Below, piece by piece: positions 1 through 60,233 of a stretch of 64,000 bases of DNA. The number at the start of each line of letters is the position of its first letter. Positions within the stretch are counted from its first letter, which is position 1. The position numbers were made by a program, and so were the translations under genes. Under the pieces are notes generated by a model. It was not told the origin of the DNA. It searched no databases and saw nothing but the letters and a program-made list of their open reading frames with translations. The DNA is taken from NCBI RefSeq assembly GCF_988243305.1, contig NZ_OZ547136.1. One strand, written 5' to 3'.

Positions 1-682
1 CAACCATCAGTTCGCGGCGGGATGCATTGGCTCGATCGGCAGAAAGCTCCCAGTTGCTATATCCTTTCTCACCACTGGCGTAAGGGAAATCATCGGTATG
101 ACCCGAAAGGCTAATACGGTTGGGAATACCATTCAGAACGGGCGCGATGGCGCGCAGAATGTCGCGCATATAGGGTTCGACGTCGGCACTGCCGGTTCTG
201 AACATCGGGCGATTCTGGCTATCGATGATCTGAATACGTAGACCTTCCTGGACCAGATCGATTTTGAGATGTGGACGTAACGCCCGCAGTTTCGGATCGG
301 ATTCAATCAACTGGTCGAGATCGCCACGCAATTTCCGCAATCGACTTTGCTCCATGCGTTTTTTCAGCTCTTCGATGTTCGGCTGCTTATTCACTTCCCC
401 CTGGCTTTGGGTGTAATCATCACCCCCACCGGGAATTGGGCTTTCACTATTAGAAATGCGATCGCCGCCCGTAACCGCAGTCGCCAGTGGAGTCCGGAAG
501 TACTCCGCAATCTGAATCAGCTCTTTTGGGCTGGAGATGGAGATTAGCCACATCACCAGAAAAAAGGCCATCATCGCGGTCATAAAGTCGGCATAAGCAA
601 TCTTCCACGATCCATGTGCTGCCCCGTGGCTTTTGGCTTTGCGTCGTTTGACGACAATAATCGGATGCGCTTGATTCTTCAT
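1..682 (-). CDS. motB: flagellar stator protein MotB (5' portion; 3' end beyond window start)
   Basis: Minus frame open to position 1; N-terminus [16 protein letters not shown] read from revcomp of ~635-682; start overlaps motA stop (ATGA). Confidence 0.85.
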
Positions 683-1566
683 GCTTCCTCGGTTGTCGTC
701 TGTTGTTGCGGATTTTTCACCGCACGCACATGCTCTTCCAGTTCAATAAACGACGGACGTTCGCTGGAATAGAGCGTTTTGCGACCAAACTCAACGGCGA
801 TAGGCGGTGCGTAACCGTTCAGATTAGAAAGCAGTGTGACTTTGACGCATTGCATCATTTTGCTGGTTTCGGCGCTTTTCTGACGTAAAACACTCGCTAA
901 TGGGGAAATAAATCCGTAAGCCAATAAAATACCGAGGAAAGTCCCCACCATCGCATGTGCGATAAGCGCCCCCAGCTCGGCGGCAGGACGATCGGCTGAA
1001 CCTAACGCGTGAACGACCCCCATCACAGCCGCGACAATACCAAACGCCGGAAGTGAGTCCCCGACCAATGCCAGACTGTTCGCCGGGACTTCTGCTTCGC
1101 TTTCGTGCGTCTCAATCTCTTCATCCATCAGGGCTTCAATTTCGAAGGTATTCATGTGACCGCTGATAATCAGGCGCAGATAATCGACGATAAAATCAAG
1201 CATGACGCTATCCGCAAGGATGCGTGGGTAGCTGGCGAAGATCTCGCTCTCACGGGGATTTTCAATATCGCGTTCCAACGAAAACATCCCCATCTGCCGC
1301 GATTTCGCCATCAACCGATAAAGCAGAGCCAGCAGATCCATATACATTGCTTTGGTATATTTGGAGCGACGAAATAGCAACGGCAGCGCCTTCAGCGTGC
1401 CTTTAATCGCTTTGCCATTATTGCCGACGATAAACGACCCAATCCCTGCACCGGCAATAATCACCAGTTCAGCGGGTTGATAGAGTGCTCCAAGGCTTCC
1501 ACCGGTCATCAGATAACCGCCGAAAACTGTACCGAGAACAACCAGGTAACCTAATAAGATAAGCAC
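679..1566 (-). CDS. motA: flagellar stator protein MotA
   Basis: 295-aa ORF recognised as MotA ([20 protein letters not shown]...), 4-nt overlap with motB start. Confidence 0.95.
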
Positions 1567-1692
1567 GACATCATCCTTCCACTGTTGACCATGACAGGAT
1601 GTTCAGTCGTCAGACGTTAACGCGCGATTGGGGGAAAAAAAAGCAGCGGTACGTCGTTACCGCTGCTGGAATGTTTCGCCACACCGTATCAG

Positions 1693-2271
1693 TTAAACAG
1701 CCTGTACTCTCTGTTCATCCAGCAGTTGTGGGATAATATCGGCAGGATTCTGGGAAAGTTTACGTCTTTTTACTGCCCGGGATGGCGGCTGACATAAGCT
1801 GCAGGCAAAGCTGCCAACAGGCTGGTGAGCGTGGGTAATAAAATTGCCGCCGCAGCAGTTGCAGCTGGAAAGTTGCAGTAATCCACTTTCAACAAACCGT
1901 ACCAATGTCCAGGCACGGGTTAATGCCAGTAGCGGTCCTTCTTCTGCTTGCGGGCACTGTTCAAGGTATAAACGGTAGGCTTTGATTACCGCATCGACGC
2001 CATTACACAAGCCGGTTTTCAGTAAAAACTGCCATGCGTTACAGAACATCGAAGCATGAACGTTTTGTTCCCAGGTCATAAACCAGTCGGTTGAGAATGG
2101 CAGCATGCCTTTCGGCGGTGGGCTTCCGCGCAGTTCTTTATAGAGTTTTATCAGGCGTCCGCGACTTAACTGTGTTTCGCTTTCCAGCATCTGCAAACGA
2201 GCGCCCAGGGTGATCAATTCCATTGCCAGCTGAATATCCCGCGCTTCCTGAACAATGCTTTTTTCACTCAT
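1693..2271 (-). CDS. flhC: flagellar master regulator FlhC
   Basis: ORF contains [27 protein letters not shown]...; start taken at MSEK. Confidence 0.95.
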
Positions 2272-2273
2272 GA

Positions 2274-2624
2274 TCACGCCCTTTTCTTGCGCAGCGCTTC
2301 TTCAGGCTGATTAACATCATTCAGCAAGCGTGTTGAGAGCATGATGCCGGTATGAATTTGCTGGAGATCGTCAACGCGGGAATCTTGCGTCAACTGAGTA
2401 ATCGTCTGGTGGCTGTCAAAACGGAAGTGACAAACCAGTTGATTGGTTTCTGCCAGCTTAACCATTTGCGGAAGAGTCAGTGCCGCTAACGTTGTCGCCA
2501 TTTCTTCATTTATGCCGAGACGAAACATTGCGGACGCTTTGTCCTGAACAATCAGACGCTGTGCAAGTAGTAAATATGACAAGTTGATGTCATAAATGTG
2601 TTTCAGCAACTCGGAGGTATGCAT
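2274..2624 (-). CDS. flhD: flagellar master regulator FlhD
   Basis: [29 protein letters not shown]...; alternative upstream start at 2633. Confidence 0.9.
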
Positions 2625-2633
2625 TATTCCCAC

Positions 2634-3404
2634 CCAGAATAACCAACTTTATTTTTATGCGGTCTCACCGCACCCCGTGATGTCGCCGGGAAGCCCCGGT
2701 AAAAAATAATTAGCATTAGAATAGTTGCGATAAGCTGCAATAGGCAGAGCCCCTTTTTTGGATTTAATAAGTCCTTACAAATAGAAGGGGTTCTTTACAC
2801 TTATCTAAGATTTTTCCTAAATCGACGCAACTTTACTCGTCACTACACTCACATACAACGGAGGGGGGCTGCGATTTTCAATAATGTGTGATGCAGATCA
2901 CACAAAACGCTCAATTACTTAACATAAATGTATAAGTCATACTTTTGTTTTGGGTGTATTTCAATCTGTTAAAAAGTTTTTCGCTACGATAGCAAGTAAA
3001 AATGAAACAGGAATAATCGAAATGGGATGTTGCGCACAGTTAAAATAACTCACCGTAAATAATCATCTGCTATAAATAATTGCTTTAATGCAATACCCGA
3101 TAAGCTATTTTTAAACAGACACTTACCGCACAACAAACTAATTAAATACAAAGAAAGGCAACAATCAACTTAATGTTAATAAAATGTTTTACATATATTA
3201 ACCACTTGTTTGATATGGAGAATCAGTACATTATTTTCTTATAATTACAGTTGAAATCATATGATCACCGAGAGTGATTGATTAATTGTATTTACTAATA
3301 ATCACACTAATATTTACCTGTTTGACTGAGTTGGGATTGCGTCGATTCTCCATTAGGAGTAAAGCTTTAATGTCACCTGAAGTTCACAGAATAAGGAACA
3401 GGTT
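2634..3404 (-). promoter_or_regulatory. flhDC upstream control region (long AT-rich leader/promoter)
   Basis: ~770 bp AT-rich non-coding DNA between flhD start and divergent uspC; position matches the known flhDC regulatory region; individual sites not resolved. Confidence 0.5.
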
Positions 3405-3833
3405 ATGAGCTATAGCAATATTCTTGTCGCCGTTGCGGTTACACCGGAAAGTCAGCAACTGCTAGCAAAAGCGGTATCTATCGCCAGGCCAGTAAAGGGA
3501 CACATCAGTTTAATTACTCTCGCTTCCGACCCGGAAATGTACAATCAATTAGCCGCGCCGATGCTTGAAGATTTACGCAGCGTGATGCAGGAAGAAACGC
3601 AAAGCTTTCTTGATAAGTTAATTCAGGATGCGGGGTATCCCGTTGACGAGACGTTTATTGCCTACGGTGAGTTAAGCGAACATATTCTGGAGGTTTGTCG
3701 CAAACATCATTTCGATTTGGTGATTTGCGGTAATCACAATCACAGTTTCTTTTCGCGAGCATCCTGCTCGGCGAAAAGAGTGATTGCCTCAAGTGAGGTC
3801 GATGTGCTGTTAGTTCCACTTACGGGAGATTAA
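3405..3833 (+). CDS. uspC: universal stress protein C
   Basis: 142-aa ORF MSYSNILVAVAVTPESQQLLAKAV... Confidence 0.9.
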   Translation: MSYSNILVAVAVTPESQQLLAKAVSIARPVKGHISLITLASDPEMYNQLAAPMLEDLRSVMQEETQSFLDKLIQDAGYPVDETFIAYGELSEHILEVCRKHHFDLVICGNHNHSFFSRASCSAKRVIASSEVDVLLVPLTGD

Positions 3834-3839
3834 CCGCAC

Positions 3840-7195
<3,356 letters not shown>

Positions 7196-15456: not shown

Positions 15457-15543
15457 TGGTACCCGGAGCGGGACTTGAACCCGCACAGCGCGAACGCCGA
15501 GGGATTTTAAATCCCTTGTGTCTACCGATTCCACCATCCGGGC
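15457..15543 (-). tRNA. leuZ: tRNA-Leu (anticodon UAA)
   Basis: Revcomp reads GCCCGGATGGTGGAATCGGTAGACACAAGGGATTTAAAATCCCTCGGCGTTCGCGCTGTGCGGGTTCAAGTCCCGCTCCGGGTACCA. Confidence 0.9.
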
Positions 15544-15555
15544 TCGGGAAGAAAG

Positions 15556-15629
15556 TGGAGGCGCGTTCCGGAGTCGAACCGGACTAGACGGATTTGCAAT
15601 CCGCTACATAACCGCTTTGTTAACGCGCC
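15556..15629 (-). tRNA. cysT: tRNA-Cys (anticodon GCA)
   Basis: Revcomp reads GGCGCGTTAACAAAGCGGTTATGTAGCGGATTGCAAATCCGTCTAGTCCGGTTCGACTCCGGAACGCGCCTCCA. Confidence 0.9.
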
Positions 15630-15683
15630 AAATTCTTCAGGCCTTTCAGCCAGACATCCGCTTGACGCCGATGTCTTTTAAAC

Positions 15684-15759
<76 letters not shown>

Positions 15760-22135: not shown

Positions 22136-23288
<1,153 letters not shown>

Positions 23289-23489
23289 GACAGGATTTCC
23301 TTGTGTATGTGGGGTGCTCTGTGGCGCTCTGAGATGTGATTTGATTGAGGGTTTTACAGCGCGGACATTTAACTTCCAGATAACTGAAGCTGGCTCGTGC
23401 CAGTAGCTTGTTACAATGTCGGCACCGTATGTTTCGATACATGGCCGCATAACCTCCTGCTTTGTTGTTGATATCTTTATCACTCAATC

Positions 23490-24776: not shown

Positions 24777-26831
24777 TTACGCGTTATTCACTTCCACCAC
24801 GATACTGTCAATCAGTACCGGGTAAGTCGCATTTTTAGTGATATCGGTCACGCGCAACTTGTCTGCCGTAAACGTGCCGACCGGAGACTGCGACAGCATG
24901 AATGGTGTCCCGTCCTTACCATCAATGACCGGCGTCACCTCAATACTGTTGTTACCGGCAAAACGGAAGCCCAGCGTATGCCATTCGTTATTAAATGCGC
25001 CGAATGACCCCAGCTTCGTGTTCTGCGCCGTGTTTCCTTTGTGATACATCACGTTAAGGTCTGTGGCATCGCTCTGTACGTAGAACGATGCCAGCAGGTT
25101 ATGACCGGCATTTCCTTCCAGAGTAACCCCTTGCGGCAGGGCAGAAACCGGCCAGTACAGCGCCAGTGCGTACTGATTAGCCGTAAGCGCGCCATCGAGT
25201 TTAAAACGACAACTGACAAGACCACCTTTACCCAGCAGGTCCGCACCATTACCAGCATCATGCTCAAGGTACCAGGGGGCTCTTCCTGTTTCCTTGGTCA
25301 GTTTCATTGCCTTACCCCCGCTGGCTCCGGCATCATCCACGATTTGAGCCTTGCCACCTCCGGCAGCCCAACCCTGTGGTGTCAACCGTCCTTCAGACTC
25401 AGATGCCCGGTAAGCAAATAGCGTACTCATCGTCGTGGTGTCTGCGGGTGGCGTGGACGGTTTTGATGGTGTATCAGGTGACGGCTTCTCATCCGGTGGT
25501 GTCACGGTCTGCCCGCGCATCAGTTCAGCCGTGCGCCCTGCATGGAGCATAATAGCTGAGGCCAGACGGTCTGAAATGACGCCCCTGCGTGCCCATGAGC
25601 TGAAATGGCTGTCACGCTGTGTCGAAACAAAACTGCCCTGGGTTCGGGATGCTGCACCGTAATACCCGACAGCCACAATATCCGGGTCTTCCGCCGGAGC
25701 ATTCGTTGGCGTGCTCTGTCCATTCTCATCCGTCAGGAACGGTACAAAGAAAATTTTCTGTGCTTCCTTGCCTTTGTAGCCACCGTATACTGCCTCATAT
25801 TTATCGGTGCCAGCGTTTTTCCAGTAATACGTGGTATCACCGCAAATCCACGGCACCGTGGTGGCATTTCCACTCACGCACTGCGCAGCAAGCGGAGCCA
25901 GGTCAGTTCTGAACTGCTGAACCATGGCCGTGAATAAACTATTATGCTGCTGGCTTCCTGAGGCAAGGTCTGCCTCTCCCTGCATCCAGACCACAGCCAG
26001 AAGTTTGTTTTTCGGGTTTTTCGCCAGCGCGACTTTGGTGCGGCTTACCAGGTCCTGATACAGAGGTTTACCGGCCCCCCAGCGTGAAGAATCAGCGGAA
26101 GCACCGCTGGCCTCACTGAATGAGCCGTCGGCTCCAGTGGTGAATGCTGACCCGCCACGACAACAGGGCACCAGAAGTATCCCGGCATTCTGTGGGATAT
26201 AGGGAAGCAGTTTTTTGGCAATATGCAACCCCTGACCGACAGTCCCGTACTGGCCTTTTGCCAGATCAGCTTTCGGGTGGTTTATCCCGCTCATATCCTG
26301 AACATCATGCAGGCAGTGGTCTGCCGGAATGATGTCGTTGTATGTACACGACGTACCGTTGGGCGTTACCGCACTGCGGCGTGCCAGTTGCTTAATGCGT
26401 GGGTCCGGGCGGTCAAACGAATCCGGTAACGGCAGCCCCTCGCCGTAGGCCATGCCATTTGACTGACCCGCGAGAATGACAACAAAGTAATATTCCGGCT
26501 CTGAACTGCTGCCATTCGTGCTACCGGAAGGCCCGGCGTTATCCGGTGCATTCCAGTCGGAGGGCGTGAGCGTTCCGGCCACGTCAGATGTGATTGGAAT
26601 GATGCCAGTCACGCCTGAACTGGTGATTTCTGCACTGGGATTACCGGATACCGGCATTACCCATAATGGCTCTTTCGTGCTGAAGCGGATCACGCAGTCT
26701 GCGAAGGTGATCCCCCCTTTATTACCCGAAGGGCGGAAAGGGCTTTCAATAAATGCCACCGTGCCACCGGCAACCTTGACTGAAAACTCTCCGGGCATGG
26801 CGGAGAGCATTTTCCACTTGGAGTCTGACAT
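24777..26831 (-). CDS. prophage-encoded SGNH/SASA-family sialate O-acetylesterase-like protein (NanS-p-like) with C-terminal lectin-like domain
   Basis: 684-aa ORF; catalytic block YYFVVILAGQSNGMAYGEGLPLPD, VPCCRGGSAFT, AVVWMQGEADL, RDSHFS resembling E. coli NanS; Pro/Thr linker then ~190-aa beta-rich C-terminal domain. Confidence 0.75.
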   Translation of the reverse strand: MSDSKWKMLSAMPGEFSVKVAGGTVAFIESPFRPSGNKGGITFADCVIRFSTKEPLWVMPVSGNPSAEITSSGVTGIIPITSDVAGTLTPSDWNAPDNAGPSGSTNGSSSEPEYYFVVILAGQSNGMAYGEGLPLPDSFDRPDPRIKQLARRSAVTPNGTSCTYNDIIPADHCLHDVQDMSGINHPKADLAKGQYGTVGQGLHIAKKLLPYIPQNAGILLVPCCRGGSAFTTGADGSFSEASGASADSSRWGAGKPLYQDLVSRTKVALAKNPKNKLLAVVWMQGEADLASGSQQHNSLFTAMVQQFRTDLAPLAAQCVSGNATTVPWICGDTTYYWKNAGTDKYEAVYGGYKGKEAQKIFFVPFLTDENGQSTPTNAPAEDPDIVAVGYYGAASRTQGSFVSTQRDSHFSSWARRGVISDRLASAIMLHAGRTAELMRGQTVTPPDEKPSPDTPSKPSTPPADTTTMSTLFAYRASESEGRLTPQGWAAGGGKAQIVDDAGASGGKAMKLTKETGRAPWYLEHDAGNGADLLGKGGLVSCRFKLDGALTANQYALALYWPVSALPQGVTLEGNAGHNLLASFYVQSDATDLNVMYHKGNTAQNTKLGSFGAFNNEWHTLGFRFAGNNSIEVTPVIDGKDGTPFMLSQSPVGTFTADKLRVTDITKNATYPVLIDSIVVEVNNA

Positions 26832-43596: not shown

Positions 43597-44928
43597 TTAA
43601 TCAATTTGTCCTTCCAGCACCTCAAGCATTCCGCCCCGGATATCCGATTTCAGCTTATCCATATTGATAACCCGGTAAGCATTCACAATCACATCCAGTT
43701 TGTCGGGCTGATGTTTCAGACTGTACGGTGCATTAACGGCAATCTGCACACTGCCATCCTTATTTTCCACGATATACATCAGATTTTTGTGCCGTTTGTC
43801 CCACAGCACCGCTTTTGGCTTTGCCAGCATTGCCGGTAAGCGCCCGAAGTCCTCTGGCATCAGGGCGATGCCGTCATTCTGATGTTTCACACTGTCTGCA
43901 TGGAGCACATTTTTACCGCTCATCGCCAGCAGGCGGGCCGGTGGCGTTCCCGTCCGGCTTTCCACTGCCTGCGCAATGCTTTCAGTCATAAAGCCCAGCG
44001 TGCGGATATCGTTACCACCTCGCCGGGTCTGCATGATGTTTTTTGCCCAGATGCGGAACGCCAGCTGCCGCTCCGGGCTGTTGTTCATCTCCTGAACCAC
44101 CATTTCCCGTAACGCCGGGCTTTTCACCTCGATCAGTTTGCGGATCAGCGCCTGGTCTGTGCCGAACGCTGCCGAGCCGGGGTTATATGACCAGCCCACA
44201 TCCGGTGTCATGGTTCTGGTGCCATCTGAATATGTGGTCACCGGCATTTCTCTGACTTCTCCGGTCTGTTTATCCACGCCAGCCTCAACATTGCGGGTGG
44301 AGAGATGATCCTCACCGGATGAAACGGATAACCCCATTGCATCCAGACGAGCCTGAGACAATGGCCGCACACGGCAGCGGCAGTTCCAGCCATTAGGTGG
44401 GTAGTGTGTTTTCCAGAACGGATCGTCATAGCGGAATACCAGACCGTTAAGGGCGGAATGCGACGGGCGGGTACGGCTGTCCATGACCGCCACATACTGC
44501 CAGAACGGATGCGTGTCCGTGTTGTTCATCATCTGCGTGTAACGCCCGGCATTGTAAGCCACACGGGTGTTCACGTTGTAAATCAGCGCCAGACGACGGG
44601 GACTGCCCAGTTGCACTTCTTCCGCGTTACCGTCGCTGTCCACCACAATCTGCTTTCCCCACCATCCCAGCTTTTGCAGGCGTGGCGTCAGCGTGCGGAT
44701 AAATGCTTTCTGTGAAATTCCCTCATCAATGGCCCGCTGCACTTCGGCCTGTAACGTGGTCACCACATCCAGGCGTGCCGCTTTTGCTGCCGTGAATGAG
44801 CGGGCATGAACATCCGCGGCTGTTTCGAACCAGTTCCAGCTGATATGCGCCCCTTTGACACGGAAGTATGCTACCGCCTCTTTTGAGGGAAGCGTGGCGG
44901 CATAACCTAAATCAATCCCCTGTGTCAT
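43597..44928 (-). CDS. head morphogenesis protein (Mu F-like)
   Basis: 443-aa ORF containing NGWNCRCR motif typical of Mu F/SPP1 gp7 family. Confidence 0.7.
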   Translation of the reverse strand: MTQGIDLGYAATLPSKEAVAYFRVKGAHISWNWFETAADVHARSFTAAKAARLDVVTTLQAEVQRAIDEGISQKAFIRTLTPRLQKLGWWGKQIVVDSDGNAEEVQLGSPRRLALIYNVNTRVAYNAGRYTQMMNNTDTHPFWQYVAVMDSRTRPSHSALNGLVFRYDDPFWKTHYPPNGWNCRCRVRPLSQARLDAMGLSVSSGEDHLSTRNVEAGVDKQTGEVREMPVTTYSDGTRTMTPDVGWSYNPGSAAFGTDQALIRKLIEVKSPALREMVVQEMNNSPERQLAFRIWAKNIMQTRRGGNDIRTLGFMTESIAQAVESRTGTPPARLLAMSGKNVLHADSVKHQNDGIALMPEDFGRLPAMLAKPKAVLWDKRHKNLMYIVENKDGSVQIAVNAPYSLKHQPDKLDVIVNAYRVINMDKLKSDIRGGMLEVLEGQID

Positions 44929-46501
44929 CCAGCATCCCCTTCATTTCCGCAGCAAACATGGCATCACTGAGCAGCGTCATCAGGCGGGAATCATCCATTT
45001 CACGATAAAGGGCAGGCAGGTCTGCCAGCGCATCCGCCAGCCCCCGCGTTCTGATGGCATCAATGACCGGCTCCAGTACCGGGTCGATGGCCTCCTGTAA
45101 GCGGCGGGCAGGCACCGCGTCCCCCATATCATCCAGTTCATCACGCGGCGTGCTTTTCGCTTCCGGCAGTCTGGCTGACAGCGCCGTCTGCTCTGTTTTT
45201 TCCTGTTTTTCCGGTGGTGTTTCCCTGTCGGTCTGAGCCGGTTCATTGCCACTCTGACGGACACGGAATATGGCTTCACCGGGCGTGGGCTGCGGAATAC
45301 CGGTCTGCTCCCGTATCCAGGGATCAGAAATATCCATCCCCGTACTGAGCTGCATCACCGCACTGGTGATTTTGGTGATATCACCTGGTTCTTTGGTCTG
45401 GAAGCAGATACGTGGCAGACGGCGGATATCAATAGTGTGCGTGGTGTTCAGGGCGTACAGCGGATACACCAGATCGCGGTTCAGGGTTGCAGCCAGCTGC
45501 CGTAAATCAGAATCCCTGATTTCCCGGCGCACCTCGTTATGCACCTCACCCAGCGAGCGCGCGCCTTTGTCTCCGGCTTCCGTGGTCAGCGTGCCGCCGA
45601 GTATTGCTTTGGAGATGGAACGCTCCCCCCACGAAATCATGGTTTCAAATGGATCGGCCTGACCGTTTGCTGCCGCCTGAAATTCCAGCGACATCCCGGC
45701 CGGGATGATCCCGCCTGTACGTCGCCCGATATCCATCACCGCCCGCATCAGGGCGCTTTTCTGCTCCGGTGTTGCCCCGGACGGGTATTTCCCGACCTTC
45801 ATCGGCAGTCCGTACACCTCCAGAAATTCGGCCAGATCGCGCACGGAATAGTTTTTGAAAATGAACGGCCAGATAAGCGTCCTGACAAGCCCCGTTGCGC
45901 CACCGTAACCGGTCCGTGAACGTGACTGATGCACTATCCAGCCAAAAGGCTGAAACGCCACCCCGGCATGGCTGCCGTCACGCAGCCGCAGTTCGCTCAA
46001 ATCATCCGGGTTAAGGCAGAAATGCCCGCTGTCACGCCAGCGGATGGCGCGGATGATGTGCATTTTACCGAGCATCCCGTGCTCAATTTCCATGCAGGAA
46101 TAGCCCTTCAGGATGGCATCCGTGGCGTCAAACAGCATGGCATCAAACCAGTCTGCGGAATGCAGATATTCGTCGAGCATTTCCGCGTCCTTTTTCTCAT
46201 TCGCGCTGGCGTTCGGTGGCGGCTCAATACTCCATGGCACCCCCTGAATGGCAAGACGTCGCTTGCCCAGCTCCGCAAAAAGGTGGGTGTCCTTTTCTTC
46301 AATATCAGCGGCCAGATCGGACTGGGCAATCAGATCGCCACGTTCAGCCCCGCGAAGGCACTGCGCCGCCCGGTTCGGGGTGATACCCGAAGCCGGATGT
46401 TCAATATAACGGCTGGCAATCTGCGGAATATCCAGCGCGGCACTCTGCATCTCCGGGTCAAAGGAGAAAGGTTTTCCGTCAGTATCAATGATGCGTCCCA
46501 C
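44912..46501 (-). CDS. portal protein (Mu H-like)
   Basis: 529-aa ORF directly downstream of large terminase. Confidence 0.7.
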   Translation of the reverse strand: MGRIIDTDGKPFSFDPEMQSAALDIPQIASRYIEHPASGITPNRAAQCLRGAERGDLIAQSDLAADIEEKDTHLFAELGKRRLAIQGVPWSIEPPPNASANEKKDAEMLDEYLHSADWFDAMLFDATDAILKGYSCMEIEHGMLGKMHIIRAIRWRDSGHFCLNPDDLSELRLRDGSHAGVAFQPFGWIVHQSRSRTGYGGATGLVRTLIWPFIFKNYSVRDLAEFLEVYGLPMKVGKYPSGATPEQKSALMRAVMDIGRRTGGIIPAGMSLEFQAAANGQADPFETMISWGERSISKAILGGTLTTEAGDKGARSLGEVHNEVRREIRDSDLRQLAATLNRDLVYPLYALNTTHTIDIRRLPRICFQTKEPGDITKITSAVMQLSTGMDISDPWIREQTGIPQPTPGEAIFRVRQSGNEPAQTDRETPPEKQEKTEQTALSARLPEAKSTPRDELDDMGDAVPARRLQEAIDPVLEPVIDAIRTRGLADALADLPALYREMDDSRLMTLLSDAMFAAEMKGMLDDTGD

Positions 46502-56903: not shown

Positions 56904-57131
56904 TTAGCTGACTTGTTTCGCACCAACAGAACGGCATATTCCGCTGTAAACTTCTGTCGCACCTTCGCGATCAAGTCCGGCAGATATCACCATTCGTGTG
57001 CGGTCATTAAATTCAAAAAGTAAATCGCCACATTCTTTATTTTCGGCCAGTGAAATCACCTTCACGTTATCGAAATTAACCAGGTAAAAGCGTCCGTAAA
57101 TATCAGGAATATTAAATACCGCCATAATCAC
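56904..57131 (-). CDS. hypothetical small protein at the kil position (directly downstream of B)
   Basis: 75-aa ORF overlapping B stop by 4 nt; in Mu the gene at this position is kil; assignment by position only. Confidence 0.35.
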   Translation of the reverse strand: MIMAVFNIPDIYGRFYLVNFDNVKVISLAENKECGDLLFEFNDRTRMVISAGLDREGATEVYSGICRSVGAKQVS

Positions 57132-58069
57132 ACCTGTGAGAGTAATTCAGGGTTGGTATAAACCTCTTTAAAGGCCGCATTAATATGTTTTTCTGTCAGC
57201 GCCGCGCCTTCACCGCTGGCGGTGAGCCACGCCTGGTTAAGCGTATGTGTCAGAACGCGTAACGCTCCCGGCTTTTCAGCGATAGCCTGCATGACGGCCA
57301 GCTCAGCCTCACCACTGATCCCCCACGCCATGGCAATGGCCAGCACATCCGCCTTTTTGGCCTTGCGAAGTTGTTTTGTACGGGCAAGACGGCTGAACAG
57401 GCGCGATAAATCATCAAAGGCGCGGCGTCCACCTTTAAACAATCCGCGCGGGTTACCAATAAGCACCATCCCGATCCCCGTGGCGTCCTGAATTGCCCGG
57501 AGTTGCTCCAGACCGTCAATACCAAGATGATCCGCCTCATCCACAATCACCAGTCCACGCGTTCCCATCAGGCGACGGCGGATGGCGCGGGATAATGCCC
57601 CTTTGTTCGCGCGGGTGTAATCAATCCCCAGCGCATCGGCCAGCTCCAGCAGACACTCCGTGACGCTGGAGTGCGCGGGTGACAGGGTGATCATCCAGGT
57701 GTTTGGTTGCTCCTGGCAGTAATTACGGGCAGTGGCCGTTTTACCCACACCCGGTACGCCCACAATAACGTTAATACAGCCCATCAGGCGAACCGCCTGA
57801 AACAGTGCGCGCAGCTCCTGGACTGTCTGAGTTTCCACAAACTGCGGCGGTTCCGGCAGTGCGCTTTGTTTATTCCAGTTCTCATACCAGGAGCGCAGGG
57901 AAGCAGCCACAGCAGCGTTATCGCCTTTATATTTTCCCTTACGGAAAGCCGATAATGTGCCGTCGGAAATTCCCGCCTCTCTGGCGATGGCATACTGCGT
58001 CAGTACGCCGCCATCAATAAGTTCATCAATGGTCTTGATTACATCGTTAATATCGGTCATATTATTCAC
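57128..58069 (-). CDS. B: transposition ATPase / target DNA activator B (AAA+)
   Basis: 313-aa ORF, Walker A GVPGVGKT, N-terminal HTH; directly downstream of transposase. Confidence 0.85.
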   Translation of the reverse strand: MNNMTDINDVIKTIDELIDGGVLTQYAIAREAGISDGTLSAFRKGKYKGDNAAVAASLRSWYENWNKQSALPEPPQFVETQTVQELRALFQAVRLMGCINVIVGVPGVGKTATARNYCQEQPNTWMITLSPAHSSVTECLLELADALGIDYTRANKGALSRAIRRRLMGTRGLVIVDEADHLGIDGLEQLRAIQDATGIGMVLIGNPRGLFKGGRRAFDDLSRLFSRLARTKQLRKAKKADVLAIAMAWGISGEAELAVMQAIAEKPGALRVLTHTLNQAWLTASGEGAALTEKHINAAFKEVYTNPELLSQV

Positions 58070-58142: not shown

Positions 58143-60233
58143 TCAGGCCAGCGGATCACTTTCTTTTAATTTCGCTTCGAGCAACTGCAATCCCCGCTGG
58201 AAATTACGCTCGTATTCTTCATCAGGTTCATCGTCAGCGACCGGTTGCTGAACGATCACCGTATTACCCACAGGGCGGTATATATTTTCCAGCCACGGCT
58301 CCTGTGGCTTGTGCTCCAGCACGTTGACAATCTCATCCTCGGCATCACGGATTTTTTCCTCTGCGCGTTTACGCATGCCTTTAAGGCGCTGCTGCTGTTT
58401 GTGGTATTCCGCGCTGACCGGGAAGGCTTCGCGTTTATTGCCGTCCCATACCGCCTCGCAAATCACGCTGCCATCCAGGCGACGTACGGTAATTCGTTCG
58501 GCATCATGAATGTCATAGCTGATAAGCACCTTACGACCATGCTCGTCACGCAGCTCGGGCGCGTAGTAAATATTATTCAGCCAGCGTATTTCACAGCGTC
58601 TTACAGGGCGCTCCACCATCGGCCGGAACATATCCCGCAGTTCAACATCGGACAGCCATTCAATTTCCGTGTCCTCTTCCGCCAGGCGTTTTTTTCTGAA
58701 CTCCGCCGGGCTGTAATGTTTACCGTTCGGCTTCATGGGTAATTCATCGTGCGGCCGGTTGTTGTACCACTCAACACCATCACGAATGGCATCAATCAGT
58801 TCAGCCCAGGACGGTGAATCACGCATCGCTGACTGCTGCCGGGCGTTCAGCCGTTTGCCCTGTTGCAGGGCAGTAAATGCCGAGCGTAAATCGCGGTTGG
58901 TTTTGCGTAACGTCTCGCGATCTGCACCTTTCCCGAAATAGGTGCGGTATTTACGGGCTATGCGCATCGGTAATGTGCGGTTAAGCCGTTCGATAATGCC
59001 TCGTCCCTGCGGATTACCGGCAATCCCGGTCGGGTGATTAATCCCCAGTCGCGGCAGTATCCCCACAACCTCCTTATCCAGGATGTCGGCGGTTTCCCCG
59101 GAGCCGTTATCCGAGTAATACAGAAACGGTTTGCCGTGATGGCGAATGCCGTGCTGTATGGCACCGGCTACGGCGAAAACATTTTCAGCCAGGTCAAGGC
59201 TCCAGCCCACCACAAAGCGCGTGCCACCGTCGATAACAAAGGTCACTTCCGGTGCAAATGGCCGACCGTGAACCGGGTGTGCGCATTTCAGCTTCATGCC
59301 GTGACCGTCACCAATCCAGACATAATTCACCGGCATTTTTGACCAGTCGCGGCGCGTGAATCCCTCAAGCTGGCGGTATTCACTGCCGGTCACCCGGCCT
59401 TTTTGTTTCACCACTTCCGGCAGTTTCTTCATTGCGCGGCGAATGGTGTCATAAGACGGCATGATATCGAGCATATAAGGCTCATCAGCGTGCCGGTGCT
59501 GCCATTCAGCGACAAAATCCTCGTAAGCCTCGGTCATTGGTCGGCCGTTTGACTGGCGATACTGCGCCAGAAATTCGGGCAGCCAGTTAATATCTTCGGC
59601 TTTTATTTCCTGGCGCTTACCCGGTGCCAGTAAAAGCAGGCGTTCAGCGGCGTTCTGCGCCTTGTTAAAGGCCGCAATCCAGCGTTTCAGCGTGATTTCA
59701 CTTAACGCGCGGCTGTTTCCCTTTTTGGCGTTCGCCGTCTCAACCATTGCCACAATGCGCTCGTCCAGCTGCGAACGTGCCAGGTTGTCAACGATAAACC
59801 GGATAGCCTTCGCACAGCTGAAACCAGGTTGTTGCGCGACTTTCAGAACTTCGCTGACGATCGCGATTCGTGCATCAGCCACCTGGCGCTGGTTTTCAGT
59901 CAGGGCATTAAGGCGTTCGACCATCAGTTGTGGTGATCCGCGATATGCCTCCACCGCATCAACCACGGCAGGCGAGCGTCTGGCCTTTGTCACCACTGGA
60001 GCCGGTGATTCATCGACTTTTTGAGTCATCAGTTGCAGGGCGTAGCGTTCACGTAATGCCTGCTGCGTCACTTCAGGTAAACAGTCGATGCTGTATTCAG
60101 TTGCTTTAGAGCCTGAGCGACGACGGGAACAACAGCTTTTCCCTTGTACGTAACGTTGTAATGCCTGGCGAATACCTTTTGTTGTAGCAGGCATTCCGGG
60201 CGCACCAATCAGTTCTTTTGCAATGACATACAT
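58143..60233 (-). CDS. A: Mu-type DDE transposase A
   Basis: 696-aa ORF directly downstream of ner; N-terminal DNA-binding domain and central catalytic region of Mu A size. Confidence 0.85.
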   Translation of the reverse strand: MYVIAKELIGAPGMPATTKGIRQALQRYVQGKSCCSRRRSGSKATEYSIDCLPEVTQQALRERYALQLMTQKVDESPAPVVTKARRSPAVVDAVEAYRGSPQLMVERLNALTENQRQVADARIAIVSEVLKVAQQPGFSCAKAIRFIVDNLARSQLDERIVAMVETANAKKGNSRALSEITLKRWIAAFNKAQNAAERLLLLAPGKRQEIKAEDINWLPEFLAQYRQSNGRPMTEAYEDFVAEWQHRHADEPYMLDIMPSYDTIRRAMKKLPEVVKQKGRVTGSEYRQLEGFTRRDWSKMPVNYVWIGDGHGMKLKCAHPVHGRPFAPEVTFVIDGGTRFVVGWSLDLAENVFAVAGAIQHGIRHHGKPFLYYSDNGSGETADILDKEVVGILPRLGINHPTGIAGNPQGRGIIERLNRTLPMRIARKYRTYFGKGADRETLRKTNRDLRSAFTALQQGKRLNARQQSAMRDSPSWAELIDAIRDGVEWYNNRPHDELPMKPNGKHYSPAEFRKKRLAEEDTEIEWLSDVELRDMFRPMVERPVRRCEIRWLNNIYYAPELRDEHGRKVLISYDIHDAERITVRRLDGSVICEAVWDGNKREAFPVSAEYHKQQQRLKGMRKRAEEKIRDAEDEIVNVLEHKPQEPWLENIYRPVGNTVIVQQPVADDEPDEEYERNFQRGLQLLEAKLKESDPLA

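What the first reader, a model, noticed from the sequence alone, without database searches (positions are those of the whole stretch)
2634..3404. flhDC upstream region is uninterrupted
This AT-rich region is a known hotspot for IS insertions that raise motility in E. coli. Here no IS-like ORF or terminal repeat is present, so the strain carries the ancestral configuration.
Basis: partly seen in the sequence, partly recalled or inferred. Interest (0 to 1): 0.15.

Follow-up and report, generated by a model that had tools for sequence, protein, structure and literature searches.

The report
Intact native flhDC control region
The DNA between the E. coli flagellar master-regulator genes flhDC and the neighbouring gene uspC carries no inserted mobile element here, which is the normal, ancestral state seen in over 95% of sequenced E. 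coli and is ordinary.

Summary

- **What it is:** window 2625-3404 (780 bp) is the flhD-uspC intergenic region.
- **AT-rich:** 34.5% GC overall and 28% at 2900-3300, against about 49% for the flanking chromosome.
- **No insertion:** against MG1655 with its IS1H removed there are 33 substitutions and one 1-bp indel. The MG1655 IS1 target and three IS5 target sites I mapped are each present once. No IS1 or IS5 homology, terminal repeats or IS-like ORF occur.
- **Normal state:** the region is contiguous in about 5250-5270 of 5426 complete E. coli genomes. Roughly 3-4% are interrupted, and 77 of those carry the MG1655-type IS1.
- **Ancestral:** E. albertii (779 bp), divergent Escherichia lineages and Salmonella diarizonae (786 bp) share the same length and order.
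- **Sequence allele:** this is a minority allele, about 96% identical to most strains. Its core promoter is identical in 262 genomes. The differences fall at naturally variable positions, and the CRP site is consensus.

Elsewhere in the window, a 39-kb Mu-like prophage interrupts dcyD.

The parts
1693..2271 (-). flhC coding sequence
   Evidence: ORF. RefSeq annotation of an identical sequence. 98.45% identical to MG1655.
2274..2624 (-). flhD coding sequence (116 aa, ATG at 2624; the GTG at 2633 is only an ORF-caller extension)
   Evidence: 99.15% identical to MG1655.
2625..2822 (-). flhD 5' untranslated leader (~198 nt); transcription start at about 2822
   Evidence: The transcription start is placed by two published markers. 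The MG1655 AsflhD annotation maps to 2603-2822. The CAP site lies at -72 from the flhD start site (PMC9600491) and maps to 2887-2902. The first ~45 nt and last ~100 nt are conserved across Escherichia and Salmonella. The middle (2745-2800) is variable.
2603..2822 (+). Equivalent of the antisense RNA AsflhD
   Evidence: MG1655 feature b4839 mapped by ungapped offset. Its start site is 22 nt inside flhD (PMC9600491). The promoter stretch 2560-2602 is identical to MG1655. Expression was not tested here.
2830..2858 (-). flhD core promoter: -35 TTGTAT (2858-2853), 17-nt spacer, -10 TAAAGT (2835-2830)
   Evidence: Read from the sequence relative to the mapped start site. The block CCGTTGTATGTG...GACGAGTAnAGTTGCGTCGA is conserved in all Escherichia and in Salmonella. 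The generic sigma-70 scan did not pick it up, so the hexamer assignment is an inference.
2887..2902 (.). CRP (CAP) binding site TGTGATCTGCATCACA, centred near -72
   Evidence: The sequence is a full consensus palindrome. [quoted passage not shown] Of the nine E. coli alleles compared, only MG1655 has TCACG in the second half-site.
2903..3300 (.). AT-rich upstream silencer and IS-hotspot zone, uninterrupted. Known IS target sites are each present once: TTAA 2919-2922, CATAAATG 2923-2930, CTAA 3138-3141, and the TTAA-type IS5 site at about 3169-3173
   Evidence: GC is 28%. The MG1655 IS1H target duplication CATAAATG was mapped. IS5 sites at -96 to -99 and about -319 come from PMC1174868. Repressor binding in this zone (H-NS, LrhA, OmpR, Fur, IHF and others) is from the literature only (PMC5493358, PMC5425062).
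3216..3245 (+). Candidate uspC promoter (TGGAGA-18-TATAAT)
   Evidence: Consensus pattern match only. The number of such matches in the region is no higher than in shuffled sequence.
3405..3833 (+). uspC coding sequence, transcribed divergently from flhDC
   Evidence: 97.67% identical to MG1655.

Best explanation
Window 2625-3404 is the native, uninterrupted flhDC-uspC regulatory region of an E. coli strain.

On the minus strand it holds:
- the flhD leader of about 198 nt, the published target of CsrA and several small RNAs and the template of the antisense RNA AsflhD;
- a weak sigma-70 promoter that depends on a consensus CRP site near -72;
- an AT-rich upstream stretch of about 500 bp, which published work describes as bound by H-NS and other repressors.

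The uspC promoter faces the other way.

No insertion sequence separates the promoter from the upstream repressing DNA. The inferred consequence is that flhDC transcription stays under normal environmental control, rather than being raised constitutively as in MG1655 (IS1) or IS5-carrying K-12 variants.

Shown here: the architecture, colinearity, absence of any IS, and conservation. Inferred from the literature: regulator binding and the expression level.
For: - Gene order and coordinates.
- Colinear with MG1655 minus IS1H, with 33 substitutions and one 1-bp indel.
- The 780-bp query is found as one place covering at least 80% in 5271 of 5426 complete genomes. The central 400 bp is contiguous in 5247 of 5426.
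- Only 77 genomes have the MG1655-type IS1 arrangement.
- Outgroups have the same length and order, at 779, 777 and 786 bp.
- No IS1 or IS5 homology or terminal repeats.
- Known IS target sites are present once each.
- The region is single-copy in genomes (median one place per genome), so it is not itself a repeat element.
- The consensus CRP site and the promoter block are conserved to Salmonella.
- Literature for the hotspot and its effect on motility: PMC1174868, PMC5493358, PMC8652233, PMC11237407.
- Literature for AsflhD and the CAP site at -72: PMC9600491.
Against: Nothing contradicts the structural claim.

The functional half is untested. The allele differs from K-12 at 34 positions, including the third base of the -10 hexamer, one spacer base and nine positions in the leader. 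Its actual promoter strength is therefore unknown.

The generic promoter scan did not detect the flhD promoter.

The genome-wide counts are approximate. BLAST pieces up to 890 bp apart are joined into one place, and insertions in the outer 20% of a query still score at least 80% coverage.
Confidence: 0.95

Rival explanations
1. The region is structurally intact, but its lineage-specific substitutions change the flhDC expression set-point. These are the -10 hexamer TACAGT>TAAAGT, a spacer base, a cluster of leader changes, and a CRP site that matches consensus better than K-12's. On this reading 'ancestral configuration' would be misleading about phenotype.
For: There are 34 differences from MG1655, with a cluster of nine at 2743-2791 and changes at -11 and -27. 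The 92-bp core promoter is identical in only 262 of 5426 genomes. The CRP half-site is TCACA here against TCACG in K-12.
Against: The variable promoter position carries all four bases among Escherichia lineages (A, C, G, T), and the count of consensus matches is unchanged at 4 of 6. The leader cluster lies in the segment that is least conserved between species. The consensus CRP site is the common state and K-12 is the exception. No expression data exist.
Confidence: 0.15
2. An IS was once present and later excised, or an old IS or MITE remnant is hidden in the AT-rich DNA, so the state is secondarily restored rather than ancestral.
For: Weak imperfect inverted repeats exist, for example 2751-2772 with 3137-3158 at 82% complementarity.
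Against: No extra copy of any known target duplication is present. The only indel against K-12 is one A in an A-run, shared with the O102:H6 allele. The region is single-copy in genomes. It is colinear with E. albertii and Salmonella. A precise excision would leave no trace, so it cannot be formally excluded.
Confidence: 0.02
3. The uninterrupted sequence reflects the assembly or a majority subpopulation. Some cells of the strain carry an IS here, as in mixed MG1655 and Keio stocks.
For: Mixed stocks with and without IS5 at this locus are documented for K-12 (PMC1174868, PMC11237407).
Against: The window is one contiguous sequence with no break or ambiguity at the locus. No IS1 or IS5 copy lies anywhere in the 64 kb. 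Reads are not available to test heterogeneity.
Confidence: 0.03

Closest known systems
IS-free flhDC-uspC (yecG) intergenic region of E. coli, as in K-12 strains such as JM109, DH5alpha and MG1655 isolate 'B', and in most natural isolates
   Same: Same flanking genes, same length (777-780 bp), same order of leader, promoter, CRP site and AT-rich upstream DNA. 95-100% identical in sequence.
   Different: This is a minority sequence allele. It is 100% identical in three complete genomes and at least 99% identical in about 15. The 92-bp core promoter is identical in 262 of 5426 genomes.
MG1655 flhDC regulatory region carrying IS1H (b1893/b1894), and IS5-carrying K-12 variants
   Same: Same backbone sequence on both sides of the insertion.
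   Different: MG1655 has a 768-bp IS1 with an 8-bp CATAAATG duplication at the position equal to window 2923-2930. T159A has a 1195-bp IS5 at about 3169-3173. The window has neither.
flhDC upstream regions of E. albertii and Salmonella enterica subsp. diarizonae
   Same: Divergent uspC, intergenic length of 779 and 786 bp, and a conserved CRP site, promoter block, start of the leader and ribosome-proximal leader.
   Different: Only 75% and 55% identical overall. The AT-rich upstream part is largely unalignable in Salmonella.

Membership tests
IS-activated flhDC regulatory region (MG1655 IS1 type or K-12 IS5 type) | A transposase ORF lies between flhD and uspC | tested here: not met
   No ORF of at least 40 aa lies inside 2625-3285. 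The only one touching the region is a 40-aa ORF running into uspC.
IS-activated flhDC regulatory region (MG1655 IS1 type or K-12 IS5 type) | IS terminal inverted repeats are present | tested here: not met
   No match to IS1 or IS5 ends within 4 mismatches in 2400-3700, and no significant IS1 or IS5 homology in the whole window. Other IS families were not searched by sequence, but colinearity excludes any insertion.
IS-activated flhDC regulatory region (MG1655 IS1 type or K-12 IS5 type) | Target-site duplication at a hotspot site | tested here: not met
   The four mapped target sites (2919-2922, 2923-2930, 3138-3141 and about 3169-3173) each occur once at their position.
IS-activated flhDC regulatory region (MG1655 IS1 type or K-12 IS5 type) | Intergenic distance enlarged by at least about 0.77 kb (1555 bp in MG1655) | tested here: not met
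   780 bp here against 1555 bp in MG1655.
Native Escherichia flhDC-uspC regulatory region | Flanked by divergently transcribed flhD and uspC, about 777-780 bp apart | tested here: met
Native Escherichia flhDC-uspC regulatory region | Colinear with reference and outgroup sequences | tested here: met
   One 1-bp indel against MG1655 minus IS1. At most 10 gap columns against E. albertii and divergent Escherichia over 830 nt.
Native Escherichia flhDC-uspC regulatory region | CRP site near -72 and a conserved core promoter and leader start | tested here: met
   TGTGATCTGCATCACA at 2887-2902. The promoter-to-+45 block is conserved to Salmonella. The position agrees with PMC9600491.
Native Escherichia flhDC-uspC regulatory region | Repressed, environmentally regulated flhDC transcription (H-NS, LrhA, OmpR, RcsAB and others) | not testable with these tools
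   Literature only (PMC5493358, PMC5425062). No expression or binding data for this allele.

The most novel reading that the evidence does not exclude
The minority flhDC promoter and leader allele carried here sets a different basal level or responsiveness of flhDC than the common allele. Its core promoter is identical in about 5% of complete genomes. It is distinguished by the -11 and -27 substitutions and a cluster of leader changes. If so, some lineages would tune motility by point variation rather than by IS capture.
Probability: 0.1. Interest if true: 0.2.

Novelty: already known. Interest (0 to 1): 0.05.

Why it matters
It matters little. It confirms that this strain has the usual, intact control region for the flagellar master operon. 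Any unusual motility would therefore have to come from point variation or from other loci, not from an IS upstream of flhDC. The useful by-product is a population figure: only about 3-4% of 5426 complete E. coli genomes are interrupted at this well-known hotspot. A large share of those carry the MG1655-type IS1 arrangement, and the examples listed are K-12 laboratory strains.

Tried and rejected
- **Rfam, whole window at gathering thresholds:** only three tRNAs, and nothing in the region.
- **Generic sigma-70 and terminator scan of 2500-3500:** three promoter-like sites, no more than in shuffled sequence, and the flhD promoter was missed.
- **Repeat search:** only short imperfect repeats.
- **Assumed source strain:** I assumed the window came from strain 2020CK-00188, whose intergenic region is 100% identical. 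That was wrong. Only the first 9558 nt are identical, and that strain lacks the prophage.
- **-10 hexamer substitution:** I considered it a possible activating mutation. I rejected it as notable because that position carries all four bases across Escherichia.
- **Papers not held:** four key papers could not be read (Barker 2004, Zhang 2017, Fahrner & Berg 2015, Wang & Wood 2011). Their content is cited only through papers that quote them.
- **Known activating point mutations:** these could not be compared for the same reason.
- **Prophage target duplication:** I tried to define a clean 5-bp duplication for the Mu-like prophage. Only TGTA is shared at both junctions.

Full report
**What is at the coordinates.** Window 1-6000 carries motB' (partial), motA (679-1566, -), flhC (1693-2271, -), flhD (2274-2624, -), a non-coding gap, uspC (3405-3833, +), otsA and otsB. 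RefSeq annotation of a genome identical over this stretch gives the same genes. The intergenic region is 2625-3404, 780 bp. The annotated FlhD starts at the ATG at 2624.

**The observation.**
- The region is AT-rich: 34.5% GC overall, 28.2% at 2900-3300, and down to 25.5% in a 200-bp window. The window without its prophage is 48.6% GC.
- Only one ORF of at least 40 aa touches the region (3286-3408, 40 aa), and it runs into the uspC start.
- Repeats are short and imperfect.
- BLAST of MG1655 IS1H and of an IS5 copy against the whole window gives only chance-level short matches, none inside 2625-3404. Neither element's terminal repeats match within 4 mismatches in 2400-3700.

In MG1655 the same gap is 1555 bp because of IS1H, which is 768 bp with an 8-bp CATAAATG duplication. 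With IS1H and one duplicate copy removed, MG1655 aligns end to end with the window. There are 33 substitutions and one 1-bp indel, giving 95.6% identity. The IS1H site corresponds to window 2923-2930, where CATAAATG occurs once.

Published IS5 sites at -96 to -99 and at about -319 from the transcription start (PMC1174868) map to TTAA 2919-2922 and CTAA 3138-3141. The IS5 of strain T159A maps to about 3169-3173. Each of these is a single, unduplicated site here.

**Population context.**
- Against 5426 complete E. coli genomes, the 780-bp region is found as one place covering at least 80% in 5271 genomes. It is single-copy, with a median of one place per genome.
- Pieces up to 890 bp apart are joined by that search, so I repeated it with the central 400 bp (2825-3224). 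That stretch is contiguous in 5247 genomes and split into two places in 163.
- The full MG1655 arrangement with IS1 is found in 77 genomes.
- Interrupted examples include K-12 derivatives with IS5. They also include a urine isolate in which an IS1 sits next to uspC and flhDC-motAB-cheAW and part of tar are deleted.
- Overall about 3-4% of complete genomes are interrupted, and a large share carry the MG1655-type IS1 arrangement, whose listed examples are K-12 laboratory strains. An uninterrupted region is the expected state.

**Is it ancestral?** A scan of species-representative genomes with a degenerate flhD start pattern returned outgroups. The flhD-to-uspC distance is 779 bp in E. albertii, 777 bp in a divergent 'E. 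coli' species representative and 786 bp in Salmonella enterica subsp. diarizonae. Escherichia sequences align colinearly over 830 nt with at most 10 gap columns. The architecture therefore predates E. coli.

**Anatomy and likely function.**
- The MG1655 AsflhD annotation maps to 2603-2822. Its start is 22 nt inside flhD, and the CAP site lies at -72 from the flhD start (PMC9600491).
- This places the flhD transcription start at about 2822 and the leader at 2625-2822.
- The CRP site TGTGATCTGCATCACA is at 2887-2902.
- The inferred promoter is TTGTAT-17-TAAAGT at 2858-2830.
- The promoter block, the first ~45 nt of the leader and the last ~100 nt are conserved to Salmonella. The middle of the leader and the far upstream DNA vary.
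- Regulator binding (H-NS, LrhA, OmpR, RcsAB, Fur, IHF, MatA, CRP) and post-transcriptional control (CsrA, McaS, OmrA/B, ArcZ, OxyS) are taken from the literature (PMC5493358, PMC5425062, PMC9600491).
- The inference is that flhDC here is under normal control, not derepressed by an IS.

**Sequence allele.**
- The window's region is 100% identical in three complete genomes and at least 99% identical in about 15. It is 95-97% identical in most.
- The 92-bp core promoter is identical in 262 of 5426 genomes. The usual difference is two bases, at 2833 and 2849.
- Position 2833 is the third base of the -10 hexamer. It is A here, C in K-12, G in E. albertii and Salmonella, and T in another lineage, so it looks free to vary.
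- K-12, not the window, is the odd one at the CRP site, with TCACG against TCACA.
- I found no reason to think the allele is functionally special, but this was not tested.

**Verdict.** The feature is already known and is the common state, so interest is very low.

**Outside the finding.** The window matches strain 2020CK-00188 exactly for 9558 nt and then diverges. It carries a 39-kb insertion at about 22419-61496 inside dcyD. The insertion encodes MuA, MuB, Mu portal, MuF and Mom homologues. It is 92% identical to Mu-like inserts in Stx-converting phages.

Noticed in passing
window 22419-61496: A Mu-like transposable prophage of about 39.1 kb interrupts dcyD (D-cysteine desulfhydrase), just downstream of the tcyJ-fliZ-fliA cluster. 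It encodes a MuA-like transposase (58143-60233 -), MuB (57128-58069 -), Mu portal (44912-46501 -), MuF (43597-44928 -) and Mom (22551-23483 -). It is absent from the otherwise colinear strain 2020CK-00188. It is 92% identical, over 86-89% of 25 kb, to 'Mu-like phage' inserts inside Stx-converting phages LC727881 and LC727895. Its ends read TGTA...TACA. Only TGTA, not a clean 5-bp duplication, is shared at the junctions.
   Followed up: partly
window 24777-26831 (-): The prophage encodes a 684-aa SASA-family carbohydrate (sialate O-acetyl) esterase with a DUF6645 C-terminus. It is 57% identical over 578 aa to the only SASA esterase listed in the 50 kb of prophage phi4 of ST131 strain EC958 that I fetched. 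PMC5425062 reports that over-expressing a phi4 esterase-like gene (EC958_1546) raises flhDC transcription and motility. That the two EC958 genes are the same is my inference. No effect on flhDC is shown here.
   Followed up: partly
window 2887 (CRP site 2887-2902): Of nine E. coli alleles and the outgroups compared, only K-12 MG1655 has a non-consensus second CRP half-site (TCACG). The window and all the others have TCACA. The standard laboratory reference is therefore the atypical one at this site.
   Followed up: partly
window 1-22420 vs NZ_ABACVG020000001.1: The window is identical to strain 2020CK-00188 for its first 9558 nt. From 9559 onward the two differ by SNPs and small indels (99.35% identity over 1-22420). 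This pattern is consistent with a recombination mosaic, and the source strain is a different one.
   Followed up: partly
L005 (NZ_CM143908.1, strain E05, human urine): In this natural isolate an IS1 sits about 220 bp upstream of uspC, and flhDC, motAB, cheAW and the start of tar are missing. It is an IS1-associated deletion that should abolish motility, the opposite outcome to IS-mediated activation.
   Followed up: partly
E. coli genome collection: Two copies of the flhD-uspC intergenic sequence are reported on records classed as plasmids, and five to seven genomes have no match at all. Neither was examined.
   Followed up: no
window 15460-15759 (-): A cluster of three tRNA genes (Leu, Cys, Gly) between yecA and pgsA, as in other E. 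coli. It is ordinary.
   Followed up: no
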